A stretch of 64,000 nucleotides of DNA from an uncultured Bacteroidales bacterium (GTDB taxonomy: Bacteria; Bacteroidota; Bacteroidia; Bacteroidales; VadinHA17): the NCBI GenBank assembly GCA_963736735.1, contig CAVTPX010000002.1, positions 83,837-147,836 on the forward strand, given 5' to 3'. Every line of letters begins with the position of its first letter. Positions within the stretch are counted from its first letter, which is position 1. Of this stretch, positions 42,577 to 53,709 are shown one piece after another. The position numbers and the translations under genes are program-made. The notes beneath the pieces are model-generated. The model had not been told where the DNA came from and did no database searches. It saw only the letters and a program-made list of their open reading frames with translations.

Positions 42577-45500
42577 GTGCCATCAAAAAGATTGAACATA
42601 TTCCGGATTAACAGGCTTTTACAGCACAGCATATTAGTTATTTTGCTGACAGGGTTTACCCTTGCCGGGTATGGGCAGTCCAATGGTGATTACCGCACCC
42701 GCGCTGCGAATAACTGGAATAATAACGCGACATGGCAGGTTTATAGCGGAGGGGCATGGGTAAACTGTGCCGCCGGTAATTATCCCGGTGTTGCTGCCGG
42801 CGCCGGAGTGGTTACGCTGACACATAATGTCACCCTCAACGTCAGTCCGGCAAATCCGATTGGCGCTCTTGTTCTTCAGGCAAACCTTACCCCCAATGCC
42901 AGTCGCACGCTTACTGTTACCGGCAATTGTACGGTTTCGTCGGGAACGCTGAATCTTTCCAATGGCGCCGGAAGAGTAGTGACACTGAATGTCGGGGGCA
43001 ATTTCACAATGTCAGGGGGCACAATTACTGAGTCGTCAACCTCATACGGCTCTGTTGTTTTTAACGGAAGCGGAACGCAGGTCTTCACAAAATCAGGCGG
43101 TACAATTTCAAACATTATTAATTTTACTGTTAACTCAGGCTCCAATCTGAATATGGGAACCAGCGTCCTTAACGGGAGCGCCGGTACATTTACCCTGAAC
43201 GCAGGAGCTACTCTTACAACAGCAAATGTTGCCGGTATTTCTTCAGCCGGTGCAACCGGAAGCATCCAGGTAACGGGAACCAGGACCTACAATACAGGTG
43301 CAAATTATGTTTACAACGGAACTCTGGCCCAGATTACAGGAACGGGTCTTCCCGCCACAGTTAATAGCCTGACAATAAACAATATCAGCGGGGTTACAAT
43401 TGCCGGCAACATAACACTTGCAGCCGGCGGGACCTTGACCCTTTCAAGCGGGATCCTTCAGGCCGGAGCCAACTCTGTTATATTAACCAACACGAATCCA
43501 GCGACGTCGGTAGTCTGGACGCCGGGATCTTTCGTAAATGTTACTTCAGGGGCCATGGAAAGGACCCTGGCGCCAGGTCTGACAGGGTCTGGCAATGACT
43601 ATTTGTTTCCGATTGGAGAAGGCGGAGTTTTTAAAGGCCTTACTCTCCTCGATGTAAATACGGGCGCTACAGGGCCGGTTTTAAGGGCTACTGTAAGTCC
43701 TGCAGGTGCACTGACCGGCGACGGTACAACAATTGCCTCGGTTGGACAACGCAATTGGTCTCTGACAAACTTAAACAGCGGAAATTTAACAAGTGCAAGG
43801 GTAGAATTATATGAAAGCGGCCTGGACTTTTTGAAGACAATAGGAATGTCATCCGCCGTTTCAGGAGATTATTCATCAATCGGAGGTTCAATCAGTGGTT
43901 CGTCACTGATTTCTTCAACAGTCCTGAACCCCGGACCATATTTCAGCATAGGCGCACTTGTGCGTACCTATTATTCCTTCCAGACCGGAGACTGGAACTC
44001 ACCTCCACGTGGACCTCAGACCCGAGCGGTACTCTTCAGTTTGGTTCTACTGCTCCAGGCGATGGTGACAAAGTCGTTATACTGTCAGGTCGTACCGTTA
44101 CTTTATCAGGAGATATTAACCGTCAGAACCTGGATATCACAATTGACGCGGGTGGCTTTCTTGATCAGGGTGTTTACAGCTTTACAAATTCATTGCTGGC
44201 ACTTCGCGGACAGGGTACCCATAAACTGGCATCCATAAATTTTCCGAACTCAACAACCAATTCATTTATTGATGCCGGCGGCGGAACAACCGAGTATGAC
44301 AATGCCGCAGACTTTACATTACCCATAACTCAGACTACCTATAATAATCTGACAATAAATACTACAGACATTATTGCAACACAATTCAGCAACCTTACTC
44401 TGAATGGCAGTTTATATGTTAAGAGAGGAACATTTCAGATTAATGACAATACTTCAGCAGCTAAACTGACTCTTACAGTAAATGGAAATGTGACTGTCGA
44501 TAACGGAGCTTTTATTACAGTTGGTAACGGGGTAACAAATACTGCAATCGGGGGCAGCGGCGGTACAGCACCCTTCCTTACTTATTATCTGAATTTTCAC
44601 ACAGTTATTATCAGGGGTGATTTTACAAACAATGGAACTGTCCGGTTTACAAATCTTCCTTATCCAATATATAATAATTTTCCTCCGATTGTTGCCGGCG
44701 CCACGTCGGGAGCTGCAACGGTTTATTTTCAGGGAGCGGCGAACAATACCCTGAATTGTAACGGGGTAACAAACTTCTATAACCTTGTCCTTGACAAAGG
44801 AATTGACCAGACGTTCAAGCTTACAATTAATTCAACCGACTATTCGTACTTTAAGCTGTTCGGGGCAAACACTTTAGCTACAGACGGAGGTGTTACGGGT
44901 AACCCAAATCTAAGAAAAGCATTATGGATCCGCTCCGGCACCCTTGAATTAAAAGGGTCTTTGATAATCCCTTCTCTTACTGAGGGAGTTGCCGCCAATT
45001 CCGATTTTTATATTCCCTCTAACGGGGCATTGGTGATTGACGGTGTTGACGTCGTAGTTCTTTCAACAGCTGATGATTACCGTGAAATAAATGCGGCATA
45101 TACAGTTACAGCTCCGGACAATGCAACAATAGGTGTTACCAGGGGAGGGGTCAGTGCTGTGGATATATTTGGCAAACTCCAGATAAATGCCGGCTATCTT
45201 TCAACAAGGGAATCAGGCGGATTAATCACTTCAAGTGTTGCTTCAGGACAAATAGTTATTAATGGCGGGACTATTGACGCAAAACAACTTCTTTCTTCAA
45301 CCGGTTCTGCTTCTTATACCCAGACCGGGGGATTAGCAATTTTCCGCGGCCGATTCCAGCGTACTCCGGCAGCCTATTCAACGGTAGCAGATCTTACTGA
45401 TATTTCGGTTACTACATTAAATACATCAAGAGCAAATAATGGTATCAACTGCCGGATATGGCTCCTTCAACCTTGAGCAGACAGGCAATATCTTTAATAT

Positions 45501-51500: not shown

Positions 51501-53709
51501 AATTAACGGTACAGGTAATTCAGTTACAATCGATTTTAACTCAGTTGCGACGAGCGGGACATTAAGTGTTACAGCAACAAATGCGTGCGGAACAAGCCCG
51601 GCAAGGACAACAGACATAACGGTCAGTCCTTTGCCCGTTGCAACCTTCAGTTACTCAGGCACTCCCTATTGTCCAAATGCAGCAAATCCCCTGCCAGCTT
51701 TCAGTGGCGGCGGCGTAGCCGGCACTTTTTCCTCTACTGCCGGGCTGGTTTTTGTAAGTACAGCCACGGGCCAGGTAAACCTGTCAGCCAGCACCCCGGG
51801 GAGCTATACTGTCACAAATACTATTGCTCCCTCAGGCAGTTGCGGTGAGGTTACGGCAACCAGCCCCATTTCAATTATTTCTGACTATCTCTGGACCGGT
51901 GCATCAGGCAGCGACTGGAATAATACCGGTAACTGGTCATGCGGACTCATACCAAATCAGACCAACTCTGTGCAGATACCAGATGTTACAAATAAGCCGG
52001 TACTAAATGCCGGGGTCCCGGGAATTGTTAATAATCTCGTAATTGATAACGGGTCTTCCTTGGTTGTCACAGGCAACACAATACGGGTCGCTGGTACGAT
52101 CACAAATAACGGGTTGTTTAATGTAACTGACGGGATTGTTGAAATGAACGGGTTGGTCGCACAGACAATTGGCAGCAATGTCTTCAGCAGCAATACTGTC
52201 AGGGATCTCATAATTAATAATCCCGGCGGTGTGACATTGCAGGGTCCGCTTAACATTACCGGCTATGTTGCCGCAACAAACGGTAACCTTGCATCTGACG
52301 GCTTTTTAACGCTGGTTTCCACGGCAACCGGGACGGCTTATGTCGACGGTGCCGGCACCGGAAACATCACGGGTAATGTGACAATGCAGCGTTACCTGCC
52401 CTCTGTTTACGGGTATAAATATTTCAGCTCTCCTTTCCAGGCTGCAACGGTAGGCGAGTTCGGCGATGATATGGATCTGGCTTCCACCTTCCCCCTCTTT
52501 TACCGTTATGATGAGGCAAGGACCTCATCAGGGTGGGTCAGTTATGCAAATGCCGCGAATCTGCTGAACCCGCTGCGCGGTTATTCTGTGAACTTCGGCG
52601 TGGCCGGCACACCGGGAACAGTTGATGTTACGGGCGTTGTTAACAACGGTGCGCTTTCAGTGACCCTTTTCAACAACAATAACACTTACACGAAAGGCTT
52701 CAACCTTGTCGGCAATCCATACCCCTCTGCAATTAACTGGAATGCTGCCGGTTGGACTAAAACGAATATTGACAATGCGGTATATTATTTCAGGGCCAGT
52801 ACAACAGACCAGTACGGCGGAACTTACAGCAGTTATGTCAACGGTATTTCAACAGATCCCGGTATTGCAACAAACATCATTCCTTCAATGCAGGGTTTCT
52901 TTGTTCACGTATCTGACGGCTCCTACCCTGTTACCGGCACTCTGGGCGTTACCAACAGCGTACGGGTAAATGACCGTACCCATAACTTCCTCAAGTCCGC
53001 GGAGGCATCCGAAAGATTTCTTATAAGAGCAACAGCATCATTTACTGATGATGCAGCCTCCTCCGACCCCACTGTCATTTATTTTACGAATGACGCATCG
53101 CCGGACTTTGACAGCAATCTGGATGCACTTAAGCTTCTGAACACGGATTATCTTGTTGCGAATGTCTATTCGATGCTTGCCGGGGGCGCCAGACTGTCAG
53201 TCAACGCATTGCCTGAATCTGCAGACACGGCCCTCATCGTCCCGCTCGGACTCAGGACAAACCGTGACGGCGAGGTAACATTCAGGTTAAGGGACCTGGA
53301 GAACCTGCCCGGGGGAATGAGGGTATATTTCCGTGACAAGACCACAGGGGCAAACATTAGCATGCTCCCTGACAAAGACTATAAGGTCGTCCTGCCGGCA
53401 GGAACCTATAATGACAGGTTCAGCATAGCATTCCTCAAAAGCACAACCGGAATTGAGGAACCGGAGTCTTCTTCGGGTCTTTTCACAGCATACGCTTCAA
53501 AGGGAATTGTCATGGCAACAGTGTGGGCTCTGGAAAATAATGAGGGAGTCTTCACAGTATATGACCTTAATGGCCAGTCTCTCTTTGTTAAAAAGGTATA
53601 CGAAAGGGGACGCCTTGAGTTTAACCCCCGGGTCAAACCGGGCATTTATATAGTTAGTTTTGTCACGGGCAGCCGCAGGGGCTCCCTGAAATTGTCACTG
53701 GGATTCTGA
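42577..53709 (+). pseudogene. Giant (about 3,700 aa) modular beta-helix/Ig-like adhesin with a T9SS sorting domain; reading frame broken at least 10 times
   Basis: Eleven overlapping ORFs in alternating frames join seamlessly at about 44005, 45447, 45721, 47210, 47676, 48096, 48284, 48383-48494, 50351 and 50901-50904. N-terminal signal 'ILVILLTGFTLAGYGQ'. Super-repeats of about 930 aa, PKD/Ig-like domains, and a C-terminal T9SS domain. Confidence 0.8.
53473..53706 (+). other. T9SS type-A C-terminal sorting domain of the giant adhesin
   Basis: 'FTVYDLNGQSLFVKKVYERGRLEFNPRVKPGIYIVSFVTGSRRGSLKLSLGF' matches the Por secretion tail pattern (..vyD..G..v......g...i.....GiYiv.......K.). Confidence 0.8.

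What the first reader, a model, noticed from the sequence alone, without database searches (positions are those of the whole stretch)
42577..53709. 11.1-kb giant adhesin gene: about 930-aa super-repeats and a T9SS tail, split into 11 ORFs that rejoin seamlessly
Seen: the eleven track ORFs (42577-44238 ... 50854-53709) overlap end to end, and protein-like sequence continues across each junction once the frame is shifted. Examples are '..TGDWNSP|STWTSDPSGT..', '..TFEFP|AGDFSDFNTRLGTTELY..', '..LLS|TSTDAVIPAGGSATSYVSGPL..' and '..PVCGSSG|IPVSFTTFNP..'. The landmark 'F-P-[VI]-G' occurs at 43606, 46403 and 49196 (spacing 2797 and 2793 nt) and as Y-P-V-G at 50448. Each is followed by homologous stretches ('YTPA', 'N..HP.V', 'Y[FY]W[RQ][VI].S.G', 'DYVAA[RK]', 'DYTAG[DN]', 'G.WSN...W'). 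Five 'W-x3-4-W ... P ... d.v.I' heads occur near 42700, 44000, 46880, 49610 and 51900. The last 950 aa contain PKD/Ig-like modules ('AGPDQSLCG...','CQGSAGIVYTVPD...NACGTS') and a T9SS type-A sorting domain. Inference: this is a single secreted fibre or adhesin of SprB-like scale. Its genetic partners are pilin, chaperone and usher genes, with no PorP/SprF-type gene beside it.
Basis: partly seen in the sequence, partly recalled or inferred. Interest (0 to 1): 0.7.

Follow-up and report, generated by a model that had tools for sequence, protein, structure and literature searches.

The report
Giant secreted fibre gene, falsely fragmented
The eleven overlapping reading frames are one 3,707-codon gene for a giant beta-helical surface protein exported by the Bacteroidota type IX secretion system; it is broken by single-base errors that most likely come from a long-read metagenome assembly, and it sits in a conserved, unstudied pilus-like operon.

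Summary
Eleven stop-free stretches on the + strand chain through ten junctions from 42577 to 53709. A 93.4%-identical relative (L041) shows what breaks the frame: eleven single-base indels, ten extra bases and one missing base. Removing them gives 3,707 codons with no internal stop. That frame is 95.5% identical to L041 in protein, with dN/dS 0.08 in every segment. Dozens of relatives carry one intact ORF of 3,100-6,400 aa, including short-read MAGs and the isolate Chryseolinea serpens. Frame breaks occur almost only in long-read assemblies, and at different positions. I therefore read the split as a consensus artefact, not a pseudogene or programmed frameshifting. The protein has a signal peptide, beta-helix super-repeats (two clear copies of about 930 aa plus shorter versions), a PKD-like domain and a 500-aa region homologous to Flavobacterium RemA. 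It ends in a T9SS type A sorting domain (TIGR04183 above cut-off once the tail is scanned alone). It lies in a tightly packed module conserved in at least 35 loci: DUF4402 x2, PapD-like protein, giant protein, DUF4402, usher-like barrel fused to SPOR domains. The gene is a new member of a known kind. Why the errors cluster in this gene remains unexplained.

The parts
40604..41054 (+). First DUF4402 (pilin-like) gene of the module. In the window it is broken by three extra bases at 40807, 40856/7 and 41000.
   Evidence: Frame 40765-41049 hits DUF4402 at E 1e-9. Both L041 (93.4% identical) and the short-read contig L087 (96.8% identical, gene intact at 166 aa) lack exactly these three bases.
41134..41682 (+). 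Second DUF4402 protein (182 aa), intact.
   Evidence: Pfam DUF4402, E 7.5e-22. Conserved upstream of the giant gene in 28 loci.
41713..42561 (+). PapD-like periplasmic chaperone candidate (282 aa), intact. It ends 15 nt before the giant gene.
   Evidence: PapD_N E 0.002 over profile positions 4-122 of 126, below cut-off; fn3_5 E 3e-5. PapD_N matches 14 of 22 orthologues, best E 3.5e-4. JGI names many homologues 'P pilus assembly chaperone PapD'. No PDB sequence hit.
42577..53709 (+). The giant gene. It has 3,707 codons once eleven single-base indels are removed. GTG start, TGA stop at 53707-53709.
   Evidence: Frame chain. Repaired ORF has 0 internal stops and is 95.5% identical in protein to L041. 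dN/dS is 0.084.
42577..42678 (+). N-terminal signal-peptide-like region (aa 1-34, ...LLQHSILVILLTGFTLAGYGQ).
   Evidence: Read from the translation. No predictor was run.
44003..44004 (+). Junction 1: one base missing in the window (L041 has an extra C).
   Evidence: The repaired text TGDWNSPSTWTSDPSGT is the same as L041 over that stretch.
45451..45451 (+). Junction 2: extra G.
45719..45719 (+). Junction 3: extra T.
47209..47209 (+). Junction 4: extra G.
47677..47677 (+). Junction 5: extra T.
48095..48095 (+). Junction 6: extra C.
48283..48283 (+). Junction 7: extra A.
48434..48446 (+). Junction 8: two extra bases (C at 48434, A at 48446), giving a net -1 frame change.
50352..50352 (+). Junction 9: extra A.
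50895..50895 (+). Junction 10: extra A.
45450..46972 (+). Best-aligned part of super-repeat copy A (aa 959-1465), including the FPVG module at 46403.
   Evidence: 30-32% identity to aa 1901-2372, offset 929-942. Between raw segments E 8e-24.
48281..49699 (+). Best-aligned part of super-repeat copy B (aa 1901-2372), including the FPVG module at 49196.
48446..50350 (+). Modelled stretch: beta-helix, then a beta-sandwich module (model residues about 238-372), then beta-helix.
   Evidence: AlphaFold2 model with mean pLDDT 84.9 and pTM 0.72, all-beta. Foldseek against PDB gives nothing at E <= 1e-3; the best weak hits are tailspikes, RsaA and antigen 43.
51391..51612 (+). PKD-like domain.
   Evidence: Pfam PKD_6, E 9e-13. 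The GhpA grappling-hook protein 9flp hits the nearby stretch 51088-51384 at E 6e-9.
52108..53601 (+). RemA-like C-terminal region.
   Evidence: phmmer against PDB: F. johnsoniae RemA (8gl6_D) residues 909-1400 of 1436, E 3.5e-18. The alignment runs into the RemA CTD.
53533..53691 (+). T9SS type A C-terminal sorting domain, with the invariant Lys near the end.
   Evidence: TIGR04183 at E 9.5e-6, 25.5 bits against a cut-off of 23. 25 of 25 orthologue tails match it and 24 of 25 match PF18962. K105 is invariant in alignment A5. A conserved Lys is described in PMC10994853.
53709..54239 (+). Third DUF4402 protein (176 aa). Its start overlaps the giant gene's stop by 1 nt.
   Evidence: Pfam DUF4402, E 7e-15. 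Conserved in 35 loci.
54269..56968 (+). Usher-like part of the 1,202-aa protein: N-terminal domain, long antiparallel strands, Ig-like domains.
   Evidence: AlphaFold2 model of low confidence (pLDDT 59.6). Its top 12 Foldseek PDB hits are FimD/PapC ushers, E 1.6e-15 to 6e-10, TM 0.2-0.4. There is no Pfam Usher hit in any of 24 orthologues and no PDB sequence hit.
56981..57877 (+). SPOR (peptidoglycan-binding) repeats at the C-terminus of the usher-like protein.
   Evidence: Pfam SPOR, E 2.5e-21, 2 stretches. PDB 1x60 and 1uta.

Best explanation
Region 42577-53709 is a single gene for a 3,707-aa protein.

What the protein is. It has a Sec-type signal peptide and long right-handed beta-helix stretches. 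Each stretch is opened by a G-x-W-x(3-4)-W head and interrupted by a beta-sandwich 'FPVG' module. These units come as two long copies (about 930 aa) and shorter ones. After them come a PKD-like domain, a 500-aa region shared with the Flavobacterium gliding adhesin RemA, and a type A T9SS sorting domain.

How it most likely works (inferred). The protein crosses the inner membrane by Sec. The T9SS translocon and the PorV shuttle recognise its C-terminal domain. It then ends up on or outside the cell surface as a long fibre or adhesin.

Why it looks fragmented. The window carries ten inserted bases and one missing base. These are most likely consensus errors of a long-read metagenome assembly. 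In the real organism the gene should be intact.

Genomic setting. The gene is the third of five tightly packed gene types in a conserved module: DUF4402 pilin-like proteins, a PapD-like protein, the giant protein, another DUF4402 protein, and an usher-like outer-membrane barrel fused to SPOR domains. Co-expression with a chaperone-usher-like pilus is therefore likely. The physical relation between the two is unknown.
For: One gene. The frames chain without any stop. L002 bridges window junctions 2-10 in continuous alignments. Removing eleven single bases gives 3,707 codons with 0 stops. The repaired text then matches L041 around every junction. Intact single ORFs of 3,100-6,400 aa occur in dozens of relatives, including MEGAHIT and SPAdes MAGs and the isolate Chryseolinea serpens DSM 24574. 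Two further intact ORFs (3,847 and 3,975 aa) were reached independently through usher homologues. 585 clusters at 50% identity match one repeat, and most are proteins of 2,000-5,500 aa with 2-7 matched stretches.

Artefact rather than decay. dN/dS against L041 is 0.084 overall and 0.02-0.18 in each of the 11 segments, with 793 substitutions and 0 nonsense codons. All 14 window-specific indels in 40807-50895 are 1 nt long, and 13 of them are insertions. L041 reads through every window site and has its own indels at other places. The short-read contig L087 (96.8% identical) lacks exactly the three extra bases of the first DUF4402 gene. Among relatives, the giant gene has 0.22 frame changes per kb in long-read assemblies. 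Among the nine short-read loci that carry the operon, the only two apparent changes are artefacts of the query (binomial p 4e-6 even with both counted). MFD long-read MAGs, to which L041 belongs, are Nanopore-only Flye assemblies polished with one Medaka round (PMC12313526). Six of the 13 inserted bases lie in GCAG/CTGC, against 2.9% expected. That fits a context-dependent calling error better than random mutation. Two other window genes also look split.

T9SS cargo. See, and PMC10994853.

Beta-helix fibre.

Operon.
Against: No reads are available and the window's sequencing technology is not known to me. The artefact reading is therefore an inference from comparison.

The indels are sharply clustered. 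Fourteen fall in about 10 kb, and none fall in the adjacent 3.6-kb usher-like gene, the chaperone or the flanking genes. Most are not in homopolymers, which is not the textbook Nanopore pattern. The clustering is unexplained.

A very recent inactivation cannot be strictly excluded by dN/dS over a 7% divergence.

The type A tail scores only just above the cut-off, and only when scanned alone.

No T9SS core gene lies in the window. Surface location and adhesion are untested.
Confidence: 0.8

Rival explanations
1. The gene is a genuine, recently inactivated pseudogene in this lineage. The indels are real mutations and the giant protein is no longer made.
For: Frame breaks are concentrated in this gene and the first DUF4402 gene, and spare the rest of the operon. 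Large surface-protein genes are common targets of loss. Several long-read relatives (L001 with 18, L064 with 13, L010 with 6) also show many breaks in this gene and fewer in the neighbour.
Against: There are 0 nonsense codons among 793 substitutions, and dN/dS is 0.02-0.18 in every segment downstream of the first break. The 13:1 excess of insertions, all of 1 nt, is the opposite of the deletion bias of bacterial pseudogenes (established knowledge). The sites are not shared with L041 or with L087. The nine short-read loci that carry the operon have no genuine breaks. Inserted bases are enriched in one 4-mer context.
Confidence: 0.12
2. The frame changes are biological recoding: programmed ribosomal frameshifting, transcriptional slippage or phase variation at ten sites.
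For: Eight of the ten junctions shift in the same (+1) direction. All 14 frame changes seen in the first comparison of L001 are also +1.
Against: The positions are not conserved. L041, at 93.4% identity, is in frame at every window site, and L002 and the intact orthologues read straight through. There are no slippery runs or repeats at the sites. The direction bias is explained by single-base insertions.
Confidence: 0.01
3. The eleven ORFs are separate genes with their own starts.
For: Gene callers split the orthologous loci L001 and L002 into many ORFs.
Against: Those are long-read assemblies with breaks at other positions. Intact ORFs are the rule elsewhere. Homology runs continuously across all junctions.
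Confidence: 0.01
4. The giant protein is handled by the neighbouring chaperone/usher-like machine rather than by the T9SS, for example as a tip or cargo of the DUF4402 pilus. On this reading its CTD-like tail is not used for T9SS export.
For: The gene order is strictly conserved, with the giant gene between the PapD-like gene and a DUF4402/usher-like pair, and the spacing is very tight (15 nt; 1-nt overlap).
Against: The tail meets the TIGR04183 cut-off in the window, and all 25 orthologue tails tested match the model at E <= 1. It carries the invariant Lys. It follows a region homologous to RemA, a proven type A substrate. No pilin-like (DUF4402) domain was detected inside the giant protein. 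Relatives outside the operon carry classic type A or type B T9SS tails.
Confidence: 0.05

Closest known systems
RemA (Fjoh_0808), the mobile gliding adhesin and lectin of Flavobacterium johnsoniae; PDB 8GL6 chain D
   Same: The last 500 residues are homologous to RemA 909-1400 (E 3.5e-18). The alignment runs into the type A CTD. Both proteins carry a type A T9SS sorting domain with the conserved Lys.
   Different: RemA has 1,436 aa. No lectin domain or other RemA N-terminal similarity was found here. This protein is 2.6 times longer and is dominated by beta-helix super-repeats with no Pfam model. Movement along the cell surface is untested.
SprB, the giant gliding adhesin of F. johnsoniae
   Same: Both are very large repetitive cell-surface proteins of Bacteroidota exported by the T9SS.
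   Different: From my own knowledge, SprB has about 6,500 aa, a type B CTD (TIGR04131) and an adjacent sprF (PorP-like) partner. Here the tail is type A, and the Pfam scans of the neighbours show nothing identifiable as PorP/SprF-like. No sequence similarity to SprB was tested, because no solved structure or sequence was at hand.
GhpA, the grappling-hook protein of Aureispira sp. CCB-QB1 (PDB 9FLP)
   Same: Both are giant T9SS-associated surface fibre proteins of Bacteroidota. A stretch of the last segment (residues 62-160 of the 934-aa query, about 51088-51384), just upstream of the PKD_6 hit, matches GhpA 4829-4932 at E 6e-9.
   Different: Similarity is limited to that stretch of about 100 aa. 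The beta-helix repeat model found no significant PDB match, so GhpA is not a structural match for it either.
Chaperone-usher pilus systems (FimC/FimD, PapD/PapC; archaic Csu type)
   Same: The neighbouring genes resemble such a system. There are small secreted beta-proteins (DUF4402), a two-Ig-domain protein with sub-threshold PapD_N matches, and an outer-membrane protein whose model matches FimD/PapC best.
   Different: No Pfam Usher or above-threshold PapD hit was found, and there are no PDB sequence hits. The usher-like protein carries C-terminal SPOR repeats. A T9SS cargo gene is embedded in the cluster. I found no paper describing this.
Beta-helical surface proteins: autotransporter passengers such as antigen 43, phage tailspikes, and the RsaA S-layer protein
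   Same: The modelled repeat is an all-beta solenoid, and these are its weak top Foldseek hits.
   Different: E-values are 5e-3 or worse and TM-scores are below 0.2. There is no autotransporter barrel, and the export signal is a T9SS CTD.

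Membership tests
T9SS type A cargo | C-terminal domain matching TIGR04183 / PF18962 above the curated cut-off | tested here: met
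   Last 110 aa scanned alone: TIGR04183 at E 9.5e-6, 25.5 bits against a cut-off of 23, profile positions 17-68 of 72. PF18962 does not hit the window's tail but hits 24 of 25 orthologue tails. Scans of the whole 968-aa segment missed it.
T9SS type A cargo | Domain at the extreme C-terminus, with the near-invariant Lys close to the end | tested here: met
   The match covers residues 53-105 of the last 110. K105 is invariant in 25 sequences. The Lys is described in PMC10994853.
T9SS type A cargo | N-terminal Sec signal peptide | tested here: inconclusive
   A basic n-region plus a hydrophobic stretch...LLQHSILVILLTGFTLAGYGQ, is seen by eye and conserved in L041. No signal-peptide predictor was available.
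T9SS type A cargo | Host genome encodes the T9SS core (SprA/Sov, PorK/L/M/N, PorV, PorU) | not testable with these tools
   None of these genes is in the 64-kb window. The rest of the genome is not available.
RemA-family gliding adhesins | Homology to the RemA C-terminal region and CTD | tested here: met
   8gl6_D residues 909-1400, E 3.5e-18.
RemA-family gliding adhesins | N-terminal lectin domain and overall RemA architecture | tested here: not met
   No lectin or other RemA N-terminal match was found in Pfam, NCBIfam or PDB searches of the segments.
SprB-type adhesins | Type B CTD (TIGR04131/CHU_C) and an adjacent PorP/SprF-like gene | tested here: not met
   The tail is type A. CHU_C matches only 2 of 25 orthologue tails, weakly. 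The neighbours are DUF4402, PapD-like and SPOR proteins.
Chaperone-usher system (neighbouring genes) | Usher: outer-membrane barrel with plug, N-terminal and C-terminal domains (Pfam PF00577) | tested here: inconclusive
   No Pfam Usher hit in 24 orthologues and no PDB sequence hit. The AF2 model (pLDDT 59.6) has FimD/PapC as its 12 best Foldseek hits, E down to 1.6e-15, TM 0.2-0.4.
Chaperone-usher system (neighbouring genes) | PapD-like periplasmic chaperone (PF00345) | tested here: inconclusive
   PapD_N at E 0.002, 18.5 bits against a cut-off of 23. 14 of 22 orthologues match below the cut-off. JGI names homologues PapD. No structure was predicted.
Chaperone-usher system (neighbouring genes) | Pilin subunits that polymerise by donor-strand exchange | not tested
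   DUF4402 is uncharacterised. A profile search against PDB found nothing and no paper mentions it.
Pseudogene | Relaxed selection, nonsense mutations, and indels of mixed size with deletion bias | tested here: not met
   dN/dS is 0.084, with 0 stops among 793 substitutions. There are 13 one-base insertions and 1 one-base deletion.
Programmed frameshifting | Shift sites conserved in relatives, with a slippery motif | tested here: not met
   Relatives are in frame at every site. No common slippery motif is present.

The most novel reading that the evidence does not exclude
The giant T9SS cargo protein and the DUF4402 / PapD-like / usher-like-SPOR genes form one functional surface organelle. In it, two outer-membrane export routes are genetically and physically coupled: a T9SS-exported beta-helical fibre, and a chaperone-usher-like pilus whose usher is tethered to peptidoglycan by SPOR domains. 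For example, the pilus might anchor or scaffold the fibre. This arrangement would be conserved across environmental Bacteroidales, and I found no description of it.
Probability: 0.3. Interest if true: 0.7.

Novelty: new member of a known kind. Interest (0 to 1): 0.35.

Why it matters
There is a practical lesson. A gene caller turns this locus into eleven 'hypothetical proteins', and the same happens in several public long-read MAGs. Giant surface-protein genes are therefore under-counted and mis-annotated in Nanopore-derived catalogues. The single-base errors here also cluster locally and in a sequence context (GCAG/CTGC) that deserves a look from people who polish such assemblies.

There is also a biological point. 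The repaired protein belongs to a large family (at least 585 clusters at 50% identity) with no Pfam model for its repeat unit and no literature that I could find. Its conserved embedding in a chaperone-usher-like module with a SPOR-fused usher is a testable lead. It bears on how environmental Bacteroidales build surface fibres, in a phylum better known for type V pili and T9SS adhesins.

Tried and rejected
- A homologue search with the whole roughly repaired 3,703-aa protein timed out. I then used the 635-aa segment instead.
- A DNA-level self dot-plot gave nothing, so the repeats are visible only as protein.
- Self-BLAST of the whole repaired protein returned only the identity hit. Overlapping 300-aa chunks were needed.
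- Pfam and NCBIfam scans of the long segments, and a Pfam scan of the last 100 aa, missed the T9SS tail. Scanning the last 110 aa alone, together with the orthologue tails, recovered it.
- PDB sequence and profile searches for the repeat unit, the chaperone candidate, the usher-like protein and DUF4402 found nothing relevant.
- Foldseek with a good model of the repeat found no significant PDB neighbour.
- Pfam Usher is not detected in any of 24 orthologues.
- Literature searches for DUF4402, and for chaperone-usher together with SPOR in Bacteroidetes, found nothing specific.
- I considered that each insertion might keep both alleles of a strain polymorphism. Only a few sites have an adjacent mismatch to L041 by eye, which is not clearly above chance, so I left this open.
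- Apparent frame changes in the short-read loci L026 and L031 were artefacts of the query ORF including part of the chaperone gene. The one in L069 sits at a scaffold gap of Ns.

Full report
**Observation**

On the + strand between 42562 and 53706, eleven stop-free stretches overlap end to end. Their frames (coordinate mod 3) are 1,0,1,2,0,1,2,0,2,0,1. That makes ten frame changes, eight of +1 and two of -1. No junction requires read-through of a stop.

FP[VI]G is at 43606, 46403 and 49196, and YPVG is at 50448. The five W-x-W heads are at 42715, 43993, 46886, 49616 and 51892.

The repeats are invisible at DNA level but clear as protein. Between raw segments, 45719-47155 matches 48536-49927 at E 8e-24, and 42892-43674 matches 48449-49264 at E 2e-5. 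In the repaired protein, aa 959-1465 match aa 1901-2372 at 30-32% identity with an offset of 929-942. A shorter module, aa 2121-2257, matches aa 2540-2678. So there are two long units of about 930 aa and shorter versions of the same unit.

**What breaks the frame**

A scan of species-representative genomes returned 80 related loci. One of them, L041 (MAG MFD01299.bin.2.84), aligns to window 38436-58817 at 93.4% identity with only 21 gaps, each of one base.

At every junction the window differs from L041 by a single base.
- Extra bases: G at 45451, T at 45719, G at 47209, T at 47677, C at 48095, A at 48283, C at 48434, A at 48446, A at 50352 and A at 50895.
- Missing base: one at 44003/4.
- Junction 8 therefore contains two insertions 12 nt apart, which explains its -1 shift.

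Removing or restoring these eleven bases gives 3,707 codons with no internal stop. The result is 95.5% identical in protein to L041. The text around each junction then matches L041, with one substitution near junction 8. L041 has three indels of its own, at other places.

**Artefact or decay?**

Six lines of evidence point to artefact.

1. Nei-Gojobori dN/dS between the window and L041 is 0.084 overall and 0.02-0.18 in each of the eleven inter-junction segments. There are 614 synonymous and 179 non-synonymous differences and no nonsense codon. Selection has therefore acted on the repaired frame, including everything downstream of the first break.
2. All 14 window-specific indels in 40807-50895 are one base long, and 13 are insertions. 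From established knowledge, bacterial pseudogenes show deletion bias and mixed indel sizes.
3. The first DUF4402 gene (40604-41054) carries three further extra bases. A JGI short-read contig (L087, 96.8% identical) has that gene intact and lacks exactly those three bases.
4. Across 82 related loci, intact single ORFs of 3,100-6,400 aa are the rule. They occur in MEGAHIT and SPAdes MAGs and in the isolate Chryseolinea serpens DSM 24574. Frame changes occur almost only in long-read assemblies: L001 has 18, L064 has 13, L010 has 6, and L002 and L041 have 3 each. Among loci that carry the operon, this is 0.22 per kb in long-read loci. In the nine short-read loci the only two apparent changes are query artefacts (binomial p 4e-6 even counting them).
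5. The MFD long-read catalogue, to which L041 and many of the broken relatives belong, is Nanopore-only Flye plus one round of Medaka. Its authors looked for Nanopore-associated errors (PMC12313526).
6. Six of the 13 inserted bases lie inside a GCAG/CTGC 4-mer, against 2.9% expected. The binomial P is 9e-7. The motif was chosen post hoc, so the value is about 1e-4 after correcting for all 4-mer pairs. A context dependence of this kind fits a calling or polishing error better than random mutation.

Two other genes in the window also look split: an AMP-binding enzyme near 11.3 kb and probably a GH95 near 13.58 kb.

Programmed frameshifting and 'separate genes' are excluded. The sites are not conserved, and orthologues read straight through them.

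**What remains unexplained**

The window's indels are packed into about 10 kb. The PapD-like gene, two DUF4402 genes, the 3.6-kb usher-like gene and the flanking housekeeping genes have none. In long-read relatives the giant gene also has about three times the break density of its neighbour (0.22 against 0.07 per kb, one-sided p 0.003). Candidate causes are local low coverage, a strain bubble at a variable surface-protein locus, or a motif-linked or methylation-linked calling error. Only reads can decide. This is the main reason I leave 12% for a real, very recent pseudogene.

**What the protein is**

The composition is rich in T, G, N and S: 12.1, 11.7, 10.2 and 9.5%. The only Pfam hit in the body is PKD_6 at 51391-51612.

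An AlphaFold2 model of 48446-50350 has mean pLDDT 84.9 and pTM 0.72 and is all-beta. It shows a solenoid, then a sandwich module containing FPVG, then more solenoid. Foldseek finds no PDB neighbour at E <= 1e-3. The weak top hits are phage tailspikes, RsaA and antigen 43, which are generic beta-helices.

The last 500 residues (52108-53601) are homologous to residues 909-1400 of F. johnsoniae RemA (PDB 8GL6_D, E 3.5e-18). The alignment runs into the RemA CTD. The RemA CTD is used as a model type A T9SS signal in PMC10994853.

Scanned alone, the last 110 aa hit TIGR04183 at 25.5 bits, against a cut-off of 23. All 25 orthologue tails hit it and 24 hit PF18962. The near-C-terminal Lys is invariant. 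Relatives outside the operon subfamily carry textbook type A tails (L047, L040, L049) or a type B CHU_C-like tail (L065). The family as a whole is therefore T9SS cargo. One repeat unit matches 585 clusters at 50% identity, most of them proteins of 2,000-5,500 aa with several matched stretches.

**Context**

The spacing between genes is 30 nt, 15 nt, a 1-nt overlap and 29 nt. The order is:
- DUF4402 (broken, 40604-41054)
- DUF4402 (41134-41682)
- PapD-like protein (41713-42561)
- giant gene (42577-53709)
- DUF4402 (53709-54239)
- a 1,202-aa protein (54269-57877) with SPOR repeats at its end

This order recurs in 28-35 of the 82 loci. It was also found independently, starting from homologues of the 1,202-aa protein, next to intact giant ORFs of 3,847 and 3,975 aa.

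The PapD-like assignment is weak. PapD_N scores E 0.002, below the cut-off; it matches 14 of 22 orthologues, and JGI names homologues PapD.

The usher assignment rests on fold only. The AlphaFold2 model of residues 1-900 is poor (pLDDT 59.6). Even so, its twelve best Foldseek hits are FimD and PapC, with E from 1.6e-15 to 6e-10 and TM 0.2-0.4. No Pfam Usher hit or PDB sequence hit exists.

DUF4402 has no solved relative and appears in none of the papers searched.

**Verdict**

This is one gene for a giant, probably surface-exposed, T9SS type A cargo protein with RemA-like C-terminal parts, next to pilus-like genes.

Four corrections apply:
- There are eleven indels rather than ten.
- There are two clear long repeats plus shorter versions, rather than a simple series of 930-aa repeats.
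- The tail is type A, so the protein is closer to RemA than to SprB, at just over half the size of SprB.
- The fragmentation is most likely an assembly artefact and carries no biological meaning.

The gene itself is a new member of a known kind. The most interesting open point is the conserved coupling of a T9SS cargo gene to a chaperone-usher-like module whose usher is fused to SPOR domains.

Noticed in passing
window 10199-11864 (+): An AMP-binding (acyl-CoA synthetase-like) gene is split into two overlapping frames, 10199-11416 and 11250-11864. The first holds AMP-binding profile positions 3-354. The second holds positions 363-384 plus the C-terminal domain. This is probably another single-base error outside the operon.
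   Followed up: partly
window 11975-14216 (-): A GH95 glycoside hydrolase appears split near 13580. Stretch 11975-13588 carries the catalytic and C-terminal domains. Stretch 13578-14216 weakly hits the GH95 N-terminal domain (Glyco_hyd_65N_2, E 5.7e-5).
   Followed up: partly
window 40807-50895: Six of the 13 window-specific inserted bases lie inside a GCAG/CTGC 4-mer, against 2.9% expected (P 9e-7, motif chosen post hoc). Two of them turn GGAG into GGCAG. This may be a context-linked or methylation-linked calling error.
   Followed up: partly
L001, L010, L064 and other long-read loci: Independent long-read assemblies break the same giant gene at other positions (18, 6 and 13 frame changes). 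They do so about three times more often per kb than the adjacent usher-like gene. The reason is unknown.
   Followed up: partly
L046, L050, L057, L062, L074 (ORF ends): Some family members outside the operon subfamily end in '...YRNPNQ', '...YYVPNNFNN' or '...YHIPNSQGY', with no recognisable T9SS tail. L065 has a type B CHU_C-like tail, and L047, L040 and L049 have classic type A tails. The family seems to swap sorting signals.
   Followed up: no
window 54269-57877 (+): The usher-like outer-membrane protein carries C-terminal SPOR (septal peptidoglycan-binding) repeats. More than 2,100 homologues at 60-70% identity are mostly annotated 'cell division protein FtsN' or 'SPOR domain-containing protein', which is probably a misleading name for them.
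   Followed up: partly
window 20000-27000: This stretch has a strongly negative GC skew (down to -0.29) and lower G+C (0.41). It is covered by minus-strand housekeeping genes (MnmG, an M23 peptidase, a TPR protein, dUTPase). The skew probably just reflects coding-strand bias.
   Followed up: no
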